From the IMG/VR virus record IMGVR_UViG_3300009159_000050, positions 1 through 64,000 of that record: 64,000 bases of DNA. One strand, given 5' to 3'. Shown one piece after another: positions 9,464-16,658 of the stretch. The notes below the pieces were generated by a model. It ran no database searches. It was given only the letters and a program-made list of their open reading frames with translations, and was not told the origin of the DNA. Each line of letters begins with the position of its first letter. Position 1 is the stretch's first letter. The translations under genes and the position numbers were made by a program. This stretch comes from a virus.

Positions 9464-9623
9464 TGAAAACTTGTTTAATAGTTAATTGTGAATCAACTGC
9501 ACTTGTATATTCTGGAATTGACGCATTCATGCTAGGTGGAATCCCTACTGAAACATATTGCTACGATTGCGCTAATGCATACAATCAAATTTCTGCACAT
9601 GTAGAAAAGTTGGTGCAACTATA

Positions 9624-9806
9624 ATGATGACTAGAAAAGACTATGTAGAAACTGCAAAAATTCTAAATGGATTTCTTGACTATATGGACCCTCACGTTTT
9701 TCAAGATTTAGTTTTTGAATTTAGCGAATGGTTTCTTTCTGACAATCCAAGATTTCATGAAGGTAAATTTTCTGAGGCTTGCTATAAAGTGGAGGTAAGT
9801 ACATGA
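9624..9806 (+). CDS. small phage protein (MTRKDY...DNPRF family)
   Basis: MTRKDYVETAKIL...DNPRFHEGKFSEAC. Confidence 0.6.
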   Translation: MMTRKDYVETAKILNGFLDYMDPHVFQDLVFEFSEWFLSDNPRFHEGKFSEACYKVEVST

Positions 9807-9933
9807 GTAGAATTTTAACAACGCTTGTGCAGCTAACTTTATTTCTTGGAGTGCTTGCTTGTTTTCGTTTAATGTGGCAAGATTTAAAAAATGATCTTGC
9901 TGAAATCAAAAACGATTTGCGAAAATAAATAAA

Positions 9934-9961
9934 AAATCCTGAGCACGATTTAAAACTGCTC
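9934..9961 (+). ncRNA. 3'-UTR H-type pseudoknot motif, copy A
   Basis: AAATC-CTGAGCAC-GATTT-AAAAC-TGCTC. Confidence 0.6.
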
Positions 9962-9974
9962 AACATTCAAAAAT

Positions 9975-10112
9975 GGGGCCCGACCCCCACGGCGTGTCGT
10001 CCACAGGTTATCCACAGGCTTTACGTTGTGATATTACTCACACCCAAATTTTGTCATATTTTGAGATTAAGTGCCTTTGAGAGTTGCTCATGTCAGCCCC
10101 ATAGTGTAGGAT
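9975..10112 (+). promoter_or_regulatory. regulatory cassette
   Basis: GGGGCCCGACC, DnaA boxes 9997 (imperfect) and 10008, CRP 10027-10042, TTGCTC-17-TAGGAT with TGTCAG-N10 at 10091. Confidence 0.65.
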
Positions 10113-10519
10113 ATTTATATCAAGTTAATTAAGAAAGAAGGAACCCCCTATGAACGAATGCAAAGTATGTTTTGCTCAGCGTATGAGTATCTCTGCAATA
10201 TCTATCAAGATCAACGAACTATGCGAGCCACACTATCGTGACTGGCAAGATGAAAAGAATATGGGTGAGTACTTTGGGTAATATGATGGAAGCCTTATGC
10301 GTTGCATGTAATGAAGATTTGCATGTAGATGGATTTTATTGTTGGTCATGTGGAATTGACACCTACTACTCAGACATGTTAGAATCAGACCTCACCCTAG
10401 ATTGGACAGAATAATATGACCCCCTATGACGACTACTATGAAACTGATATGCCTACTGCCGTGGGTTGCTACTGCAAAATAAACTATGTGTGCTCAGAAT
10501 GTAAAGGAAACTATAACTA

Positions 10520-10732
10520 ATGGAATATGAATATCTAATTACCTGCGCCTATGACGGAAACGCTCCGCATTGGAAGCAACGCTATGAAAACGAATTTGGT
10601 GCATGGGAAAACTTTTTCCTATTTACTGATTGGGGAATGGCTGATGAATACTCCACAGTTAATCTCTACACGCCCACAGGCAAGTGTTACACAAGAAACT
10701 TTTATCGTAGCGGAATGGTGGCAACAAAATGA
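10520..10732 (+). CDS. hypothetical protein
   Basis: AAAGGA RBS, in operon of small ORFs. Confidence 0.55.
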   Translation: MEYEYLITCAYDGNAPHWKQRYENEFGAWENFFLFTDWGMADEYSTVNLYTPTGKCYTRNFYRSGMVATK

Positions 10733-10876
10733 TAAAGATTGAAGCAGAAGTAATTACATGGAAGCCTAATGATAAAAATTCTTTCATTGACAATATGACT
10801 CAAGATGAGTTAGCAATATTTGAAGCAGACATACAAGACGCTATTGACGGCGTAATAGAAGATTGGAAATAATATA

Positions 10877-11182
10877 ATGGGATCAGTAACCGCACTAGGA
10901 ATTAAAGATACAGTACTTGATTTGGAAACTCAGATTCTTTATCATCTCAAGGGTAATCACTATCCTCCAGTACCTGCAGAAATGGTCGCACCATGCATTG
11001 AAGCCATTGACGCGTACTATGATGAAGATTGGGATAGAATGATTGACATGCCTATGGTTGGTAGTTTTCAGATTCTCTATAAGGGAAGCAAGCAAGCGCC
11101 TGCATGGGCTATCGTAGAACAACACCACCTATCATGGTTTATTGAGCCAGTAGCATACTCTGATGAGGAGGAGGAATCCTAA
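10877..11182 (+). CDS. hypothetical protein
   Basis: HLKGNHYPPVP...AIVEQHHL motif; acidic tail. Confidence 0.6.
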   Translation: MGSVTALGIKDTVLDLETQILYHLKGNHYPPVPAEMVAPCIEAIDAYYDEDWDRMIDMPMVGSFQILYKGSKQAPAWAIVEQHHLSWFIEPVAYSDEEEES

Positions 11183-11248
11183 TGGCAATACTATTGACTT
11201 CAGTCACAGTTATATTTGTAGTAAAGATGATTTCACAGGGCAGATAAA

Positions 11249-11482
11249 ATGAGTGCTACAATAAATGGCATGGAACTAATAAAAGCTGATGTGCTAACTG
11301 CAGATGCAATTGAGATTGGTGATCTAATCTCTTTTGATGATGATATCGTTGAAGTAATTGCTATTGATGTTGATTCTACTGGCGATGTATATAGCATTCA
11401 AGTTAGCAACGACTTTGGTGAAACACAAACAGTTGACTTTGATTTTGATGAAGAAGTTGACTGGTACGTTTATATAGACTAA
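11249..11482 (+). CDS. small acidic beta-barrel-like protein
   Basis: ADAIEIGDLI pattern. Confidence 0.5.
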   Translation: MSATINGMELIKADVLTADAIEIGDLISFDDDIVEVIAIDVDSTGDVYSIQVSNDFGETQTVDFDFDEEVDWYVYID

Positions 11483-11485
11483 AGT

Positions 11486-11555
11486 GGGGCCCGAGGCCCC
11501 TGTGAGCTATATCACATTTACGTAGGTTGATATTTTTTTCTATATATGATAGGAT
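11486..11555 (+). promoter_or_regulatory. regulatory cassette
   Basis: GGGGCCCGAGG, CRP 11501-11516, TTGATA-17-TAGGAT. Confidence 0.65.
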
Positions 11556-11583
11556 TAGAATAATCCAAACGAAAGGTCAACTA

Positions 11584-11790
11584 ATGAAAATTTATGAAGT
11601 TACTTGTATTCACTATGAAATTTGTGGCTCTACTGAAACTTTTAATGAATCAGAATATGAAATCTATGGTGATGATTTCACCTGTGCTGAATGTTTCAAT
11701 CAACTTGAAATGTTTTCTCATGGCTGGCGTGATATTGCTTCAGATCACATGATGACTCGCATGGCTGATGCGGAGATGGGAGATTTGTAA
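11584..11790 (+). CDS. Cys-containing hypothetical protein
   Basis: GAAAGGT RBS, ATG 11584. Confidence 0.55.
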   Translation: MKIYEVTCIHYEICGSTETFNESEYEIYGDDFTCAECFNQLEMFSHGWRDIASDHMMTRMADAEMGDL

Positions 11791-11791
11791 A

Positions 11792-11887
11792 ATGGAAAAA
11801 GATTTATTTGGTTTTGAAAAAGCAATTCAACTTAACCACTTAACAAAAGAACAAATTGATGAATTGTTAAAAATGCTTGAAATATAA
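11792..11887 (+). CDS. 31-aa peptide, paralog of 8194-8295
   Basis: sequence similarity; both are the last gene before a GGCCC box. Confidence 0.6.
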   Translation: MEKDLFGFEKAIQLNHLTKEQIDELLKMLEI

Positions 11888-11889
11888 GA

Positions 11890-11957
11890 GGCCGAGGCCC
11901 CATGTGACTTAGCTCACATTTAAGAGATTTGATATTTTTCCCCATATCTGGTAAGAT
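11890..11957 (+). promoter_or_regulatory. regulatory cassette
   Basis: GGCCGAGGCCCC, CRP 11903-11918, TTGATA-17-TAAGAT, leaderless ATG 11964. Confidence 0.65.
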
Positions 11958-11963
11958 TATTAC

Positions 11964-12110
11964 ATGAGCCAGAAAAAGACCCCTGAAGAATTACGTATCC
12001 TTATGGAATTACGTAGATCTAATGCTGCCTCAGCTATCCCCAACAAAAAGAAATATGACAGAAAGAAATGTCAGTCGTACCTGCTACAATTAAAGAAAGA
12101 AAGCGAGTAA
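11964..12110 (+). CDS. 48-aa basic peptide
   Basis: leaderless; ELRRSNAASAIPNKKKYDRK. Confidence 0.5.
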   Translation: MSQKKTPEELRILMELRRSNAASAIPNKKKYDRKKCQSYLLQLKKESE

Positions 12111-12115
12111 CCCCC

Positions 12116-12838
12116 ATGACCAAATTACTTAGATCAAAAGATCGCAAAGTCGCTAACCTAGTTACAACTAATGGAAAACAAGCAAGCATGGCTAATACTT
12201 TTGGCCTACCTGCAGGCAAGGCGTACTCATGCCCTGGCGCTACTAGTGTGTGCGAGAGTGTATGCTATGCAGGCAAACTAGAAAAGGTATTCCCTAGTGT
12301 AAAGAAAAACCTATTGCACAACTGGGCATTGCTCAAGGACGCAGACTTAGATACTATGCAAACCTTAATCTCAGAGATGATTGAAGAGTTTAAGACAGAA
12401 TGCGTTAAGCGTAATGCACCTATGCTATTTCGTATCCACTGGGACGGCGATTTCTTTAATGATCAGTATACACAGGCATGGAAGAATGTCATCCTTAACA
12501 ATACAGACATTCAATTCTGGGTATACACACGTGTTAATTCTGCCGCAGTAATGCTAAAGGATATTGCTAATCTATCTTTATACTATTCTACAGATAGTGA
12601 GAATAAGTCTATTGGCCTTACCCTGAAAAAAGATCATGGCGTACGTCTTGCTTACCTTGCTAAGAATTTTGCAATTGGTCAGGCAGACATGAAAGAGATG
12701 ATTGGTCGCCCTGGTGCTAAGTGTCCAGAGAATCTCAAGGCTATTCCCCTTATCTCTCAAAAGGGCTCCGCTTGCGTATCCTGCTCATTGTGCGTATACT
12801 CTAAGAGCGACATAGTATTCTCTGCAACAAAAAAATAA
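12116..12838 (+). CDS. GP88 family protein (Fe-S/radical-SAM-like)
   Basis: FGLPAG..SCPGATSVCESVCYA, FRIHWDGDF, C-terminal CxxCxxC. Confidence 0.7.
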   Translation: MTKLLRSKDRKVANLVTTNGKQASMANTFGLPAGKAYSCPGATSVCESVCYAGKLEKVFPSVKKNLLHNWALLKDADLDTMQTLISEMIEEFKTECVKRNAPMLFRIHWDGDFFNDQYTQAWKNVILNNTDIQFWVYTRVNSAAVMLKDIANLSLYYSTDSENKSIGLTLKKDHGVRLAYLAKNFAIGQADMKEMIGRPGAKCPENLKAIPLISQKGSACVSCSLCVYSKSDIVFSATKK

Positions 12839-13017
12839 AGGAGATAAATGGACATATATGTAGTCTTATCTTTCATAGGGCTATTATTGTTCCTCATGAC
12901 AAAAAAATAATGTGACCTAAATCACAGTCCAAATAGTGAGATTTTTAGGAAATGGATTTGATATTTCTTAGATTTTTTGCTACACTTAATATAGTACCAA
13001 CTACAAAGGAGAAACAA

Positions 13018-13185
13018 ATGACGGTATCAACAGCAACATACAAGGTGGGCGACCTCTACACTTCACAGAAGTCAAAGGTAACAGGAACAATCTTGGAAAT
13101 CTCACCAACCGCAAATGACACAGTTCGTGTTAAGTTAGATGTAAATGGCATGACACGCTGGACAACATGGAAGGCTAGTTCATAA
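13018..13185 (+). CDS. small SH3-like hypothetical protein
   Basis: AAGGAG RBS; promoter TTGATA-17-TACACT at 12958 with CRP 12911. Confidence 0.55.
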   Translation: MTVSTATYKVGDLYTSQKSKVTGTILEISPTANDTVRVKLDVNGMTRWTTWKASS

Positions 13186-13199
13186 CTAGTTAGACAGTC

Positions 13200-13226
13200 A
13201 TTCCTGAGCATGAATTAAAAAGGCTC
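13200..13226 (+). ncRNA. pseudoknot motif, copy B
   Basis: ATTC-CTGAGCAT-GAAT-TAAAAA-GGCTC. Confidence 0.55.
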
Positions 13227-13289
13227 AACTTAATGTCAGTCCCACCTACTATAATATAAATAACCCACCAAAGAAAAGAGAAAATAAAA

Positions 13290-13715
13290 ATGGCAACAAG
13301 AAGCAAAGCAATCTCAGTAAAGATCGCAACACCAAAGGTAATCAAGGCACTAGAAGCATCACTTGCTAAACTAGAAGCAGACTACGCATCACAAGAAGCA
13401 AATGAAGCAAAGTATCAGAAGGCGTATGAGAAGTGGAAGAAAGACCTTATTGACTATGCAGTAGCAAATATCAAAAAGGCAGAAAACTTCCGTACTAACT
13501 ATCGCTCATGGTCAAACAATCTCAACATTGATTTTGATTTAGCGGTATCAGAAAAGGATCTACCAAAAGAGCCTACTAAGGATTTTGAGACACTTCATCA
13601 CAGTAACTATCGTGAGCAGAAGCAAGAGATGGAAAACGCAATTCGTATTCTCAAGATGACAGATGAGGAAGTAGTTTCCGCATCAACTTATCAAGCGGTT
13701 GCTCGTTATCTCTAA
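13290..13715 (+). CDS. hypothetical coiled-coil protein
   Basis: downstream of TGTCAG-N10-TATAAT (13234). Confidence 0.65.
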   Translation: MATRSKAISVKIATPKVIKALEASLAKLEADYASQEANEAKYQKAYEKWKKDLIDYAVANIKKAENFRTNYRSWSNNLNIDFDLAVSEKDLPKEPTKDFETLHHSNYREQKQEMENAIRILKMTDEEVVSASTYQAVARYL

Positions 13716-13750
13716 CTAACTTAGGGGGCAGTTAAAGTCCTGAACCCTAA

Positions 13751-13777
13751 CGACCTGAGTAAGTCGCAAAACTGCTC
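13751..13777 (+). ncRNA. pseudoknot motif, copy C
   Basis: CGAC-CTGAGTAA-GTCG-CAAAAC-TGCTC. Confidence 0.6.
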
Positions 13778-13851
13778 CCCGCAAGGGTCTTTGACAAATG
13801 TCAGTGGCCAGTAGTATACTTAAACTAACCAACAAACAGAAAGAGGCCCCC

Positions 13852-14265
13852 ATGGACCAGACAGTAACAGTAGTAAATGCAACAGAAGACTTTCTTCGTG
13901 ATTCCCTAGCAAAAGCAACTCTTCGTGTTGCACAACTAGAGGAGCAGATTCAGAAAGTAACTCAGCGATCATATGTTGATTCTGCTAACAAAAACCATAT
14001 GATTGACGCAATGAAAGAATGGACCCTTAGCGAATTAGAAAACCTTTCGCTTGCACAAGAACATGCAGAAGCAATTGCAGAAATTATGGGATTTGAACTA
14101 ACAACAGAATTTGAGGTTGAAGTTACAGTTACATATGCAATTACAGTTAATGCAGTCAATGAAGAAGAAGCGCAGAACTTAATTCATGATATTGATTTTG
14201 ATTCAGTATCAGAGCCCCAAGGCGTAACTTATTTGTCATCCAGTGTTGACAGAATAGATATTTAG
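13852..14265 (+). CDS. hypothetical protein
   Basis: GAGG RBS; promoter TTGACA/TGTCAG-N10-TATACT 13791-13820. Confidence 0.6.
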   Translation: MDQTVTVVNATEDFLRDSLAKATLRVAQLEEQIQKVTQRSYVDSANKNHMIDAMKEWTLSELENLSLAQEHAEAIAEIMGFELTTEFEVEVTVTYAITVNAVNEEEAQNLIHDIDFDSVSEPQGVTYLSSSVDRIDI

Positions 14266-14279
14266 TAGGGGGCTACTAA

Positions 14280-14308
14280 TAGATCTAAGCATATCTATAA
14301 ACTGCTTA
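14280..14308 (+). ncRNA. pseudoknot motif, copy D
   Basis: TAGAT-CTAAGCAT-ATCTA-TAAAC-TGCTTA (compensatory changes in both stems). Confidence 0.6.
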
Positions 14309-14477
14309 TTCAGCTCCCGCAAAATTTGGGGCTCGGGCCCCATGTGACCAATATCACACGTGTCTTTACGAGACATTAAAAAAATGTCCGATTTGCCCCA
14401 TATTTAACTAGCCTGCCTTGCATTTGTCAGTCTATCCTGATATACTTAAATCTCAACAACAACAAGGAGAAAAACTC

Positions 14478-15494
14478 ATGGCACATGACCTAGAAATACA
14501 AAACGGAAAAACATCTTTTGCTTCTTTCCGTGAACCTGCATGGCATGGATTGGGTACCGTCTTCACTGAGGAAAAGACCACACTAGAAATGTTAGATCTT
14601 GCTAACCTTTCTAACTGGAACGTTCGTCTTGAAGATCTACCAACCCCTGCACACTTAACAAGCGACAAGGAATACCAATATGTCGTACGCACCAACCCCA
14701 CTGATAGCGCCCAGACTGATATTCTTGGTGTCGTTGGTGAACGCTATCACGTATTGCAGAATGAGGACCTATTCTCATTTGGTGATAACATCCTAGACGG
14801 CGGTGGCCGTTGGGAGACTGCTGGCTCAATCAAGGGTGGACGTGTTGTCTTTGGTGCCCTTGCACTAGAGCGTGAAACAATCCTAGACCCTAGTGGCGTT
14901 GCAGATAAGGTGAAGACCTATTTGCTCATCAACACATCACATGACGGCTCAATCGCAATTCAAGCAAGCATAACACCAGTTCGTGTTGTGTGCGCTAACA
15001 CTCTCAATCTTGCACTTAACACCACACGCAAGAAGAATGGTGTCAAGCAATCATTCAAGATTCGTCACACTCAGACTGCCAATGGTAAGGTGCAAATTGC
15101 ACGTGAGACTCTTGGCATGGCTAATAAGTACATGGACGAATTTGATCTCATGGCTAAGGCTATGATTGAGAAGGAAGTCAGTGCTAAGACTTTCTACGAT
15201 ATCATTCTTGCTGCATATCCTAAGCCAGAAAAAGATGCTAAGGGTGCCGTAAAGAAGTGGGAGAATAAAGTTGATATCATCAACGATATTTACACTGGCG
15301 AATTTAATGGCATGATTGCTGGTAATGCATGGGGTGCATTTAATGCACTTACTGAGCGCCTTGATTGGTACCGCACATCTCGCGGTGGTAACAATGAAAG
15401 CATGCTTGCAAGCGCAAGCGGATTTGACCCTGCAATCAACGCAGAGAAAAATCGTTTGCTAAAGGTTGTACAAAATACCTTGCAACTAGTATAA
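14478..15494 (+). CDS. DUF932/DUF945 (TIGR03299) phage/plasmid-like protein
   Basis: MAHDLE...REPAWHGLG...WETAGSIKGG...TSHDGS...TPVRVVCANTL...IRHT. Confidence 0.85.
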   Translation: MAHDLEIQNGKTSFASFREPAWHGLGTVFTEEKTTLEMLDLANLSNWNVRLEDLPTPAHLTSDKEYQYVVRTNPTDSAQTDILGVVGERYHVLQNEDLFSFGDNILDGGGRWETAGSIKGGRVVFGALALERETILDPSGVADKVKTYLLINTSHDGSIAIQASITPVRVVCANTLNLALNTTRKKNGVKQSFKIRHTQTANGKVQIARETLGMANKYMDEFDLMAKAMIEKEVSAKTFYDIILAAYPKPEKDAKGAVKKWENKVDIINDIYTGEFNGMIAGNAWGAFNALTERLDWYRTSRGGNNESMLASASGFDPAINAEKNRLLKVVQNTLQLV

Positions 15495-15501
15495 TAAAAT
15501 A

Positions 15502-15527
15502 ATCCTGAGCATGATATAAAACTGCTC
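15502..15527 (+). ncRNA. pseudoknot motif, copy E
   Basis: ATC-CTGAGCAT-GAT-ATAAAAC-TGCTC, 4 nt before tRNA-Asp. Confidence 0.55.
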
Positions 15528-15531
15528 GCAA

Positions 15532-15605
15532 GATCTCTTAGCTCAATTGGTTAGAGCGCTACCCTGTCACGGTAGAGGTTGCGAGTTCAAGTCTCGTAGG
15601 GATCG
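15532..15605 (+). tRNA. tRNA-Asp(GUC)
   Basis: cloverleaf; anticodon arm CTACC-CTGTCAC-GGTAG; GTTCAAGT T-loop; G73. Confidence 0.9.
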
Positions 15606-15732
15606 CAAGCGTAAATGGGGCCCCGAGGCAAAATGGTACAAAACGGACATTTAAGAAGCTAAGATAAATACTCACGGATTTTTTTATTACGAAGGGCTTG
15701 CTTTTTCCCCAGTTTTCCTGTAGAATAAATAC

Positions 15733-15894
15733 ATGAACACTACACATAAACCATACACAATACACGAACTCGTAGAAGAAATCTATGAGGACAACTTCTC
15801 GCACTTTGATTTCATGGAAAACATGAATGGTGGGGATTGCGATTGTAATCTTCATATGACTATGAATACTATCTTAAAGTATTGGGGAGAGTAA
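15733..15894 (+). CDS. hypothetical protein
   Basis: leaderless after TAGAAT 15721. Confidence 0.5.
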   Translation: MNTTHKPYTIHELVEEIYEDNFSHFDFMENMNGGDCDCNLHMTMNTILKYWGE

Positions 15895-16052
15895 TGCTAG
15901 GCTATACTAAAGAAGATTTAGATCAGATGACTAATGCTATTCAGTCTGCTATAACTACCGTGAATTCTGACGATGACCCTTGGCTACATTCAAGACTGTA
16001 TATGGCAAGCGAATTCTTACAAGGCCTATGGGCAGAAGGGTATTTTGACTAA
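15894..16052 (+). CDS. hypothetical protein
   Basis: TAATG overlaps at both ends; MLGYTKEDL...FLQGLWAEGYFD. Confidence 0.5.
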   Translation: MLGYTKEDLDQMTNAIQSAITTVNSDDDPWLHSRLYMASEFLQGLWAEGYFD

Positions 16053-16240
16053 TGTGGACTAAACATGAGTATCTTTGTACTAATTGTGATACCCTTTTTG
16101 AAATCACAACCAGCAATGACCTGGTGATTCAACCCAACTGTATCTGTGATCAGCCTCACATTATTAGGATAAACAGATATGATGTGACGCAACTCACAGA
16201 AGATCACCTTGACTCTATTGGCAAAGTTCACTACAATTAA
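16052..16240 (+). CDS. zinc-ribbon small protein
   Basis: HEYLCTNCD...PNCICD. Confidence 0.55.
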   Translation: MWTKHEYLCTNCDTLFEITTSNDLVIQPNCICDQPHIIRINRYDVTQLTEDHLDSIGKVHYN

Positions 16241-16243
16241 TAT

Positions 16244-16393
16244 ATGGACCTAAACACATTACGAGAGTACATAAAAATTCACATAATCTCATTGGAGCAA
16301 GACTTGGAATCAAACCCTGAATCTATACACGTAGTAGACCTCAATGGACAAATTGTGGCCTGTGAACATATACTAGGAGTAATCAATGAATAA
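16244..16393 (+). CDS. hypothetical protein
   Basis: leaderless after TTGACT-17-TACAAT. Confidence 0.5.
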   Translation: MDLNTLREYIKIHIISLEQDLESNPESIHVVDLNGQIVACEHILGVINE

Positions 16394-16658
16394 TCTATCA
16401 CTATCCCCTCGTCTACAAAAACTAGTAGACATGGGGGAATCAGGCACTGACATCCTACATGGGGAACTAAAAAACCTTATGTATGAAGCAGAAAAGAATA
16501 TGCTTGCTGCTCAGAACAATGAACCTTTGGCTGAGGATGAGTATGATGAGTCAGATGAGTATCATCATGGATACCTTGACGCTTTGGCAACGGTATACCA
16601 ACTAACTTACGAACTGGCATTTGCAATCTCAGATCGTGCTAAGTTGACAAACCAATAG
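16386..16658 (+). CDS. hypothetical protein
   Basis: GGAG RBS; GYLDAL motif. Confidence 0.6.
   Translation: MNNLSLSPRLQKLVDMGESGTDILHGELKNLMYEAEKNMLAAQNNEPLAEDEYDESDEYHHGYLDALATVYQLTYELAFAISDRAKLTNQ

What the first reader, a model, noticed from the sequence alone, without database searches (positions are those of the whole stretch)
9934..15527. Five-copy covarying H-type pseudoknot RNA placed just after stop codons
Seen: the pattern P1-[CT(G/A)AG(C/T)AN]-P1'-A-rich linker-P2' occurs at 9934, 13200, 13751, 14280 and 15502. P1 differs between copies yet always pairs (AAATC/GATTT, ATTC/GAAT, CGAC/GTCG, TAGAT/ATCTA, ATC/GAT). The loop GAGCA pairs with TGCTC, with a compensatory AAGCA/TGCTT in copy D and a G-U pair in copy C. 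Each copy lies 5-35 nt after a stop codon; copy E sits 4 nt before tRNA-Asp. Inference: a ~28-nt structured element acting as an exonuclease block, processing or termination signal, or a decoy (type III ToxI antitoxins are pseudoknots of similar size). I cannot assign it to a known family.
Basis: partly seen in the sequence, partly recalled or inferred. Interest (0 to 1): 0.8.

Follow-up and report, generated by a model that had tools for sequence, protein, structure and literature searches.

The report
Phage gene-end RNA pseudoknot family
Five copies of a tiny knotted RNA fold sit just behind genes of this uncultured lake phage; the same fold is widespread in phages, is in no RNA catalogue I could search, and probably seals or marks the ends of messages, though that is untested.

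Summary
Five + strand copies (9934-9962, 13200-13227, 13751-13778, 14279-14308, 15502-15528) share one H-type pseudoknot. It has a variable, covarying P1, a loop CU(G/A)AG(C/U)AN, an A-rich linker ending AAAC, and a 3' strand (U/G)GCU(C/U) that pairs with the loop.

A covariance model finds only these five in the window (32-43 bits; next best 8.6). Rfam 15 has no match.

The family is large. 80 related viral contigs hold 406 matches, almost all on the gene strand. Unrelated viral contigs with GC 32-69% carry it too. So do cultured phages of Mycobacterium, Arthrobacter, Bacillus and Synechococcus.

P1 covaries strongly. P2 is compensated at three positions, at several independent sites.

The elements begin 3-20 nt after a same-strand stop codon, most often 4-7 nt. 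In 100 cases they end 3-9 nt before a tRNA; none follows a tRNA.

My best reading, inferred and not shown, is a compact roadblock that caps the 3' end of the upstream message. At copy E that end would be made by RNase P.

The ToxI-like decoy and read-through readings are not supported.

This scan has already found the same family on other DNA (earlier AI notes); my tests here agree with those notes.

The parts
9934..9962 (+). Pseudoknot copy A. P1 9934-9938 with 9947-9951; loop 9939-9946; linker AAAAC 9952-9956; P2 3' strand 9957-9961 plus A 9962. It lies 5 nt after the TAA (9926-9928) of a 41-aa ORF.
   Evidence: (42.6 bits)
13200..13227 (+). Pseudoknot copy B. P1 ATTC/GAAT; loop CTGAGCAT 13204-13211; linker TAAAAA; 3' strand GGCTC 13222-13226 (4 of the 5 core P2 pairs are standard). 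It lies 14 nt after the TAA of the 77-aa ORF 12952-13185.
   Evidence: (32.2 bits)
13751..13778 (+). Pseudoknot copy C. P1 CGAC/GTCG; loop CTGAGTAA 13755-13762 (one G.U in P2); 3' strand TGCTC 13773-13777. It lies 35 nt after the TAA of the 141-aa ORF 13290-13715. A small hairpin CCCGCAAGGG and the promoter-like site 13791-13820 follow.
   Evidence: (34.9 bits)
14279..14308 (+). Pseudoknot copy D. P1 ATAGAT/ATCTAT; loop CTAAGCAT 14285-14292; 3' strand TGCTT 14303-14307 (G-C compensated to A-U). It lies 13 nt after the TAG (14263-14265) of the ORF ending at 14265. Its P1 closing pair is U-A, not the usual C-G.
   Evidence: (34.7 bits)
15502..15528 (+). Pseudoknot copy E. P1 ATC/GAT; loop CTGAGCAT 15505-15512; linker ATAAAAC; 3' strand TGCTC 15523-15527. 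It lies 7 nt after the tandem TAA TAA of the DUF932 gene (14478-15494) and 4 nt before tRNA-Asp.
   Evidence: (38.1 bits)
15532..15606 (+). tRNA-Asp (GTC). It lies only 37 nt after the DUF932 stop, and the pseudoknot fills most of that gap, so I infer that it is co-transcribed with that gene. Its 5' maturation by RNase P would leave the pseudoknot plus 4 nt as the 3' end of the upstream message (inferred).

Best explanation
The five repeats are members of a large, uncatalogued family of cis-acting phage RNA pseudoknots. They are transcribed as part of the message of the gene in front of them.

Anatomy: P1 has 3-7 pairs of free sequence, closed by C-G. One base (C) crosses P2. P2 is UGAGCA paired with UGCUCA. 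One base (Y) sits at the junction. An A-rich strand of 5-9 nt ending AAAC lies along P1.

Proposed action: the folded knot is a compact mechanical roadblock at the gene end. After the transcript is cut or ends a few bases downstream, 3'-to-5' exonucleases find too short a tail and a tight knot. At copy E the cut would be made by RNase P at the 5' end of tRNA-Asp; elsewhere an endonuclease or a terminator would make it. The upstream coding region with its stop codon therefore survives.

Shown: the fold by covariation, the strand, the position after stops, the adjacency to tRNAs, and the breadth of the family.

Inferred: every step that involves nucleases, RNA ends or stability.
For: Fold, P1. 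In A1 (67 sequences), pairs 6-21, 7-20 and 8-19 change on both sides in 32, 20 and 31 sequences. The covariation score is 0.313, against 0.07-0.09 for slid partners, and 0 of 500 shuffles reach it. In 92 distinct relatives, pairs 6-19 and 7-18 change on both sides 47 and 30 times with 0 unpaired.

Fold, P2. This was scored on 334 distinct hits of a sequence-only HMM, which cannot favour compensation. Of 15 AAGCA loops, 14 have U opposite (12 TGCTT, 2 GGCTT) and 1 has C. There are also 2 GAGTA/TACTC and 1 GAACA/TGTTC. These occur with different P1 stems and at different places in the loci.

RNA, not DNA. G.U pairs are common: 57 of the 334 are GAGTA/TGCTC. Strand bias is 349 + to 1 - in the relatives. 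All 300 listed covariance-model hits are on the gene strand.

Gene-end position. Of 383 distinct elements with an upstream ORF of 50 aa or more, none starts less than 3 nt after the stop, 103 start at 4-7 nt and 236 at 3-20 nt. The median distance to the next same-strand start is 114-163 nt. In Synechococcus phage S-EIVl, using GenBank's own annotation, 5 of 7 hits begin within 8 nt of a same-strand stop.

tRNA adjacency. 100 elements end 3-9 nt (2 of them 23 nt) before a same-strand tRNA; 53 are at 4 nt and 27 at 7 nt. The tRNAs are Asp, Asn, Glu and Thr. No element follows a tRNA within 60 nt. In the cultured Arthrobacter phage Molivia the order is SSB gene, pseudoknot, 3 nt, tRNA-Gly.

Breadth. 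It occurs in viral contigs of GC 0.32-0.69 in 17 locus clusters and in cultured phages of four host genera. A job done with universal host machinery fits this better than a job needing one phage protein.
Against: No RNA end, half-life or nuclease resistance was observed.

In S-EIVl the knots lie inside ~55-nt intercistronic gaps, 18-26 nt before the next start, with no room for a promoter. A cut there would have to spare the next ribosome-binding site. A 5'-to-3' block or a translational role fits that setting as well.

A plain G+C-rich hairpin would also stop exonucleases. The near-invariant P2, the C, the AAAC and the C-G closing pair (281 of 282) hint at a specific partner or ligand, which this model does not need.

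The sharp preference for 4-7 nt after the stop is not required by an exonuclease block.

Some metatranscriptome contigs run across copies B, C and D.
Confidence: 0.42

Rival explanations
1. Translation insulator. The knot sits at the entrance of the ribosome's mRNA channel when the stop codon is in the A site. It refolds behind the terminating ribosome and blocks post-termination sliding or scanning. Each cistron is then translated on its own, or release is made more efficient.
For: There is a sharp lower bound of 3 nt and a mode of 4-7 nt between stop and P1 (103 of 383). This is the spacing range recalled for recoding pseudoknots.

In S-EIVl the order is stop, knot, 18-26 nt, next start.

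Coremin-type knots block scanning eukaryotic ribosomes in vitro (PMC10520033, abstract read).
Against: Spacers range up to 35 nt in this window (copy C) and 66 of 383 exceed 60 nt.

Copy E and about 100 relatives are followed by a tRNA, not by a cistron.

In this window promoters, not coupled starts, follow copies B, C and D.
Confidence: 0.2
2. A signal for RNA polymerase. The nascent knot would pause, terminate or modify the elongating polymerase at gene ends.
For: It lies at gene ends and on the gene strand, and in this window it is often followed by a new promoter. 65 of 422 elements have 5 or more T in the 8 nt after P2.
Against: Only 3 of 422 are followed within 40 nt by a canonical hairpin plus T-run.

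tRNAs with no promoter of their own lie 3-9 nt downstream and must be transcribed through the knot.

In S-EIVl the downstream cistrons have no room for promoters.
Confidence: 0.1
3. A specific binding site. It could be an aptamer for a small molecule (riboswitch-like), an operator or decoy for a phage or host protein, or a site that guides an endonuclease or cleaves itself.
For: Unpaired and P2 bases are almost invariant across phages of very different G+C content. The topology resembles ligand-binding H-type knots such as preQ1-I (recalled).
Against: There are five copies behind unrelated genes in 6 kb, and no constant downstream gene.

No protein family is shared by all motif-bearing loci. 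The largest is in 36 of 120, all of one lineage.

No Rfam riboswitch or ribozyme matched at E up to 10.
Confidence: 0.15
4. A DNA-level element: a cassette junction for recombination, or a protein-binding or hairpin site in DNA.
For: The knots bracket small, variable early genes, together with promoters and G+C-rich hairpins. This resembles the mobile promoter/stem-loop cassettes of T4-type phages (recalled).
Against: G.U pairs would be A-C mismatches on the other strand. Strand bias is 349:1. Stem sequences vary freely while pairing is kept. The loop-to-downstream pairing is compensated.
Confidence: 0.03
5. ToxI-like type III antitoxin or decoy.
For: Only the size and the pseudoknot topology.
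Against: The copies are dispersed, not tandem. They lie inside messages after unrelated genes. No ToxN match was found in the record, but the search controls were silent, so this is weak.
Confidence: 0.01

Closest known systems
Coremin motif (xrRNA-C) and its Watson-Crick variant (xrRNA-WCC) of plant and other eukaryotic RNA viruses. Read: PMC6546385 (outline, section 10), PMC10321173 (passages), PMC10520033 (abstract).
   Same: A very small hairpin whose loop interacts with a conserved spacer a few bases downstream. It lies after coding regions and works as a mechanical block to an exonuclease and to ribosomes.
   Different: Coremin has a 3-5-pair hairpin with a 4- or 6-nt loop (YGAD or YGNNAD), a 10-nt spacer, at most 3 Watson-Crick loop-spacer pairs and an obligatory second hairpin. 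It stops the eukaryotic 5'-to-3' enzyme Xrn1.

Here the loop is 8 nt, P2 has 5-6 pairs and there is no constant second hairpin. The hosts are bacteria, and position argues for protection of the upstream RNA. There is no sequence homology.
Classical H-type recoding pseudoknots (luteovirus frameshift knots, MuLV read-through knot). Recalled, not read here.
   Same: The same topology, with a 1-nt loop 1, a near-zero junction and an A-rich loop 3. The distance of a few bases from the codon in the A site is also similar.
   Different: Copies D and E have tandem stops, C has an in-frame stop before the knot, and B has one 10 codons on. 203 of 268 nearby stops are UAA.
MALAT1-type triple helix followed by the tRNA-like mascRNA, and tRNA punctuation of organelle transcripts. 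Recalled, not read here.
   Same: A compact A-rich tertiary structure sits immediately 5' of a tRNA-shaped RNase P substrate, so that tRNA processing makes a structured, protected 3' end.
   Different: Those are eukaryotic or organellar with different folds. Here only some copies precede a tRNA (1 of 5 in the window), and no cleavage has been shown.
Intercistronic stabilising hairpins and terminator or REP stem-loops of bacteria and T4. Recalled, not read here.
   Same: Structures at gene ends that stop 3' exonucleases and set the stability of individual segments.
   Different: Those are plain, usually G+C-rich hairpins without conserved loops. This is a pseudoknot with near-invariant tertiary-strand bases.
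ToxI antitoxin RNA (type III toxin-antitoxin systems). Recalled, not read here.
   Same: A pseudoknot of about 30-36 nt in phage-related contexts.
   Different: ToxI is a tandem array next to toxN and is cut by ToxN. Here there are single dispersed copies and no toxN was found (weak).

Membership tests
Any Rfam 15 family | Match to a curated covariance model | tested here: not met
   cmscan at gathering scores over the whole window found only 6 tRNAs. With E up to 10 over 9500-16000, nothing overlaps a copy except a chance snoR27 row at E 9.7.
The phage gene-end pseudoknot family defined here (model R1) | P1 closed by C-G around an 8-nt loop CU(G/A)AG(C/U)AN; an A-rich linker ending AAAC; a 3' strand that pairs with the loop | tested here: met
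   All five copies score 32-43 bits. Copy D departs in the closing pair (U-A). Copy B departs in one P2 pair and in the end of the linker (AAAAA).
The phage gene-end pseudoknot family defined here (model R1) | On the gene strand, a few bases after a stop codon | tested here: met
   Spacers are 5, 14, 35, 13 and 7 nt. In the family, 236 of 383 lie at 3-20 nt.
Coremin / xrRNA-C | First hairpin of 3-5 pairs with a YGAD or YGNNAD loop | tested here: not met
   The loop is 8 nt in 237 of 250 distinct elements and reads CUGAGCA in 191 of them.
Coremin / xrRNA-C | Obligatory second hairpin directly downstream | tested here: not met
   The 36 nt downstream fold at a mean of -4.18 kcal/mol, against -3.47 for shuffles. 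Copy B has no hairpin.
Coremin / xrRNA-C | Stalls a processive exonuclease | not testable with these tools
   Needs enzyme assays.
ToxI (type III antitoxin) | Tandem array of repeats | tested here: not met
   The copies start at 9934, 13200, 13751, 14279 and 15502.
ToxI (type III antitoxin) | Adjacent ToxN-family endoribonuclease gene | tested here: inconclusive
   PF13958 has no match in the 89,966-b record, but the control genomes were silent too.
Recoding (read-through or frameshift) pseudoknot | An open extension frame beyond the stop or shift site | tested here: not met
   The next in-frame stop comes after 0 codons (D, E), 2 (C) and 10 (B). Only A is open, for 67 codons.
preQ1-I riboswitch | Match to RF00522 and a position in the leader of queuosine-related genes | tested here: not met
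   No match at E up to 10. The copies follow unrelated genes, among them DUF932 and ORFs with no family match.
Intrinsic terminator | G+C-rich hairpin followed by a T-run | tested here: not met
   The scan of 9500-16500 lists none at the copies. Only 3 of 422 family members have one within 40 nt.

The most novel reading that the evidence does not exclude
Tailed phages of many bacterial phyla share a universal 'message-end cap'. It is a ~28-nt pseudoknot that stops bacterial 3'-to-5' exonucleases. Where it abuts a tRNA, it uses RNase P to make its own end. That would be a bacterial-virus counterpart of the MALAT1 triple-helix/mascRNA device and of tRNA punctuation, and the first exonuclease-resistant RNA class described for prokaryotic viruses.
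Probability: 0.35. Interest if true: 0.85.

Novelty: new variant of a known kind. Interest (0 to 1): 0.68.

Why it matters
If the reading holds, phages carry a portable 28-base module that sets where a message ends and how long it lasts, independently of terminators. That would explain how densely packed early genes and embedded tRNAs are expressed separately.

It would add a prokaryotic-virus class to the exonuclease-resistant RNAs known from eukaryotic viruses. It would also give a very small stabilising tag for engineered bacterial messages.

Even with the function open, the family is one of the most widespread phage RNA motifs absent from Rfam. It is present in cultured phages (Arthrobacter phage Molivia, Mycobacterium phage Labelle, Bacillus phage vB_BceM_WH1, Synechococcus phage S-EIVl), so it can be tested directly.

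Tried and rejected
1. A fixed-spacing pattern with 3 mismatches was useless: 16 matches against 14.3 expected, and none of the copies was found.

2. tRNA-acceptor mimic ending in ACCA. ACCA follows P2 in 27 of 408 distinct elements, against 1.9 expected, mostly in one tRNA-adjacent lineage. The conserved A after P2 is better explained as a sixth P2 pair with the loop U: U-A in 178 and U.G in 22 of 282. I dropped this as a defining feature.

3. A second hairpin or terminator after the knot is not enriched.

4. Loop-3 length against P1 length: the negative correlation (rho -0.58) comes from my parse, because P1 plus linker is about 10-11 nt. It is not used as evidence.

5. A co-occurring protein. 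An all-against-all comparison of 2596 ORFs from 120 motif loci found no universal neighbour. The top family is in 36 loci of the window's own lineage; an Hsp20-like family is in 18 loci of another lineage.

6. Streptomyces phage Jay2Jay has the closest cultured DUF932 relative (54% identity) but no knot; its best match is 11.1 bits.

7. The ToxN search was silent, but so were its controls.

8. RNA data. Four lake-water metatranscriptome runs, held only as contigs, carry near-identical pieces of this region, for example 231-431-nt pieces with 0-2 differences. RNA libraries can contain DNA. Contig ends fall at 13198 and 13212 (copy B), at 13745 (copy C), and at 15508 and 15509 in two studies (copy E). 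Other contigs bridge copies B, C and D. Contigs cannot show RNA ends, and repeats break assemblies, so this is at most a weak hint and is not counted as evidence.

9. Cellular genomes. In viral contigs 100 of 120 pass with the stricter 8-nt test. The plausible ones lie in contigs of Saccharibacteria, Parcubacteria, Lactobacillus gigeriorum, Polaromonas and Bacteroidia. I did not check whether those are prophages.

10. Literature. Searches found no description of this motif. 10.64898/2026.09.22.753630 (passages) and PMC4324244 (passages; proteomics only, no RNA-seq) add nothing.

11. A look-up of earlier notes by sequence gave nothing.

Full report
**What is there.** The window is the first 64 kb of an 89,966-b IMG/VR virus record with 37% G+C. 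At the five stated places the + strand reads P1, then C-U-(G/A)-A-G-(C/U)-A-N, then P1', then an A-rich linker, then (U/G)GCU(C/U). P1 differs in every copy and always pairs: AAATC/GATTT, ATTC/GAAT, CGAC/GTCG, ATAGAT/ATCTAT, ATC/GAT. Of 36 CTRAGYAN sites on both strands of the window, only these five are flanked by 3 or more pairs; the other 31 have 0-2. Each copy follows a same-strand ORF stop by 5, 14, 35, 13 and 7 nt. Copy E ends 4 nt before tRNA-Asp at 15532-15606. Rfam 15 has no match, either at gathering scores over the window or at E up to 10 over 9500-16000.

In 100 of the 120 an 8-nt loop is directly flanked by 3-7 pairs of many different sequences. Most of the other 20 have 9-10-nt loops. 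The same pattern in 596 Gb of cellular genomes also filled 120 rows, roughly the number expected by chance for 18 fixed bases. There only 19 of 120 have a P1 of 3 or more pairs, even with loops of 8-10 nt allowed. The pairing is therefore a property of the viral copies, not of the pattern.

I aligned the five window copies with 62 distinct pattern hits (A1) and built covariance model R1 with P1 only. Run without filters over the window, R1 returns the five copies at 32.2-42.6 bits and nothing else above 8.6 bits. A sequence-only HMM over the whole record agrees. In 80 contigs related through the DUF932 protein (922,379 b), R1 finds 406 matches at E up to 1, and the 300 listed are all on the gene strand. 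The HMM gives 349 + to 1 - at E up to 0.1.

**Is the fold real?** P1 covaries heavily. In A1, three pairs change on both sides in 32, 20 and 31 of 67 sequences. The covariation score is 0.313, against 0.07-0.09 when partners are slid, and 0 of 500 shuffles reach it. In 92 distinct relatives, two pairs change on both sides 47 and 30 times with no unpaired cell.

P2 could not be judged on pattern-selected or top-scoring rows. I therefore used all 334 distinct full-length hits of the sequence-only HMM, which treats columns independently:
- 222 GAGCA/TGCTC
- 57 GAGTA/TGCTC (G.U)
- 30 GAGCA/GGCTC (end pair lost)
- 11 AAGCA/TGCTT and 2 AAGCA/GGCTT (compensated), against 1 AAGCA/TGCTC
- 5 GAGCA/TGCTT (G.U)
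- 2 GAGTA/TACTC and 1 GAACA/TGTTC (compensated)
- 1 each of GAGTA/TGCTT, GGGCA/TGCTC and GAGTA/GGCTC

The compensated cases carry different P1 stems and lie at different places in their loci. The window's nearest relative, L006, shows the uncompensated intermediate of copy D. The rows are related, so these are counts and not probabilities.

G.U pairs and the strand bias argue for RNA of the gene strand, not for a DNA hairpin. Nested folding of each copy chooses P2 and extends it by pairing the loop U with the base after the 3' strand. That base is A in 178 and G in 22 of 282 distinct elements. The P1 closing pair is C-G in 281 of 282; copy D is the exception. The linker ends in AAC in 233 of 250 and is 64% A.

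**Context.** Among 383 distinct elements with an upstream same-strand ORF of 50 aa or more, none begins less than 3 nt after the stop, 103 begin at 4-7 nt, 236 at 3-20 nt, and 66 beyond 60 nt. Some of the last group may follow smaller ORFs. The nearby stops are TAA 203, TAG 52 and TGA 13. The next same-strand start is far and variable, with a median of 163 nt in relatives and 114 nt in other loci.

Read-through is excluded in this window. In-frame stops follow after 0 codons (D, E), 2 (C) and 10 (B); only A is open. A canonical terminator follows within 40 nt in 3 of 422 elements, and the downstream 36 nt are barely more structured than shuffles.

In this window the copies are followed by promoter-like sites, for example TTGACA-18-TATACT at 13791-13820. 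The five upstream genes are unrelated: a 41-aa ORF, a 77-aa ORF, a 141-aa ORF, a 137-aa ORF and a DUF932 protein.

**The tRNA link.** Running ARAGORN over all loci gave 182 tRNAs in 122 records. 100 elements end shortly before a same-strand tRNA. The gaps are 4 nt (53), 7 nt (27), 3 nt (7), 5 nt (5), 8 nt (4), 6 and 9 nt (1 each) and 23 nt (2). No element follows a tRNA within 60 nt. Most cases are the conserved DUF932-knot-tRNA-Asp arrangement of the window's lineage, but spacers and tRNA sequences differ, and Asn, Glu and Thr tRNAs occur as well.

The gap between the DUF932 stop and the tRNA is only 37 nt, and the knot fills most of it. I therefore infer that the tRNA is read from the gene's own transcript. 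RNase P must then cut 4 nt after the knot. This step follows from established tRNA biology and is not shown here.

**Breadth and cultured hosts.** Motif loci fall into 17 protein-sharing clusters with G+C of 0.32-0.69. DUF932 relatives are mostly in actinobacteriophages: Mycobacterium 215, Streptomyces 116, Microbacterium 55 and Arthrobacter 50 of 561 records. This suggests an actinobacterial host for this lake phage.

A 45-nt query found candidates in GenBank phages, and R1 confirmed them:
- Mycobacterium phage Labelle, 46.5 bits, 6 nt after gene 85
- Arthrobacter phage Molivia, 44.2 bits, in the order SSB gene, 6 nt, knot, 3 nt, tRNA-Gly
- Bacillus phage vB_BceM_WH1, 34.2 bits
- Synechococcus phage S-EIVl, 8 matches, all on the gene strand

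In S-EIVl, using GenBank's own gene calls, 5 of the 7 matches at E up to 0.04 begin within 8 nt of a stop and end 18-24 nt before the next start. One of those next genes is the SSB gene. Streptomyces phage Jay2Jay has none.

**What it most likely does.** The shown facts are a conserved RNA fold, its position on the gene strand directly after stops, its place immediately 5' of co-transcribed tRNAs and never 3' of them, and its presence in phages of unrelated hosts with no shared neighbouring protein.

The simplest mechanism that uses only universal host machinery is a mechanical roadblock that keeps the upstream coding region intact once the transcript is cut or ends just downstream. From recalled enzymology, PNPase, RNase II and RNase R need a single-stranded 3' tail of several bases to engage. 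The 3-9-nt tails left by RNase P would be too short for that. I put this at about 0.4.

The tight 4-7-nt spacing and the S-EIVl intercistronic setting keep a translational-insulator role alive (0.2). The near-invariant tertiary bases keep a specific-partner role alive (0.15). A polymerase signal (0.1), a pure DNA role (0.03) and a ToxI-like role (0.01) fit worse.

**Comparison with what is known.** Earlier AI notes of this scan, on other genomes, describe the same family and point to the coremin xrRNA. I read the coremin papers. The resemblance is functional and topological only. Coremin has a 4- or 6-nt loop, at most 3 Watson-Crick loop-spacer pairs and an obligatory second hairpin, and it acts on Xrn1. 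None of the defining features that I could test is met here.

I found the tRNA adjacency, before reading the notes that propose RNase P-made ends, so we agree independently on the observation. The mechanism remains untested in all of them.

**Weak RNA data.** Lake-water metatranscriptome contigs carry this region. Some contig ends fall at copies B, C and E, but others bridge copies B, C and D. Contigs cannot show RNA ends, so I do not count this.

**Verdict.** This is a real, widespread, uncatalogued phage RNA pseudoknot at gene ends. Its function is inferred. It is directly testable in cultured phages.

Noticed in passing
window 9973-9990, 11486-11500, 11888-11901, 14327-14342, 15617-15630: G+C-rich hairpins of the GGGGCCC...GGGCCCC type recur in this 37% G+C region. 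On the + strand (the gene strand) an A-run precedes them. On the - strand they read as hairpin plus T-run, that is, terminator-like for antisense transcription (one search lists 9990-9973, 11500-11486 and 11901-11888 on the - strand). Copies A and D of the knot are each followed by one. Another first-reader note on this genome calls them cassette boundaries.
   Followed up: partly
window 13234-13239, 13799-13804, 14425-14430: The hexamer TGTCAG sits at the same place in the spacer of three promoter-like sites downstream of copies B, C and D. The -10 boxes are TATAAT 13250-13255, TATACT 13815-13820 and TATACT 14441-14446. The same TGTCAG follows the knot in unrelated loci (L092, L161, L186). 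It may be an operator or an extended promoter element.
   Followed up: no
window 13718-13733 and 14263-14278: A small hairpin with a G-rich loop lies between the stop codon and the knot in copies C and D: AACT-tagggggc-AGTT, and TAGTAG-gggg-CTACTA. The second contains the tandem TAG stops.
   Followed up: no
L328 (Arthrobacter phage Molivia, NC_042001.1 38312-38348, - strand) and L345 (Synechococcus phage S-EIVl 30485-30518): In two cultured phages the knot is next to the single-strand-DNA-binding protein gene. It lies just after it in Molivia (then tRNA-Gly) and just before it in S-EIVl.
   Followed up: partly
loci L097, L110, L115, L131, L135 and others; ORF family 8: A second lineage (18 loci) carries a near-identical knot with a 7-pair P1 (TATAGTC/GACTGTA) in loci that also encode an Hsp20-like small heat-shock protein. 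An extended -10-like TGNTATAAT often starts 10-11 nt after P2.
   Followed up: no
window 14469: In two metatranscriptome studies (X2, X3) a contig begins at 14469, 9 nt before the DUF932 ATG. In X3 adapter letters lie directly before it. It may be a fragment end or an RNA 5' end, and contigs cannot decide.
   Followed up: no
window 12068-12838: The 256-aa ORF matches Pfam GP88 (PF17338, E 5e-52). The DUF932 protein's relatives are mostly in actinobacteriophages. Both suggest an actinobacterial host for this lake phage.
   Followed up: partly
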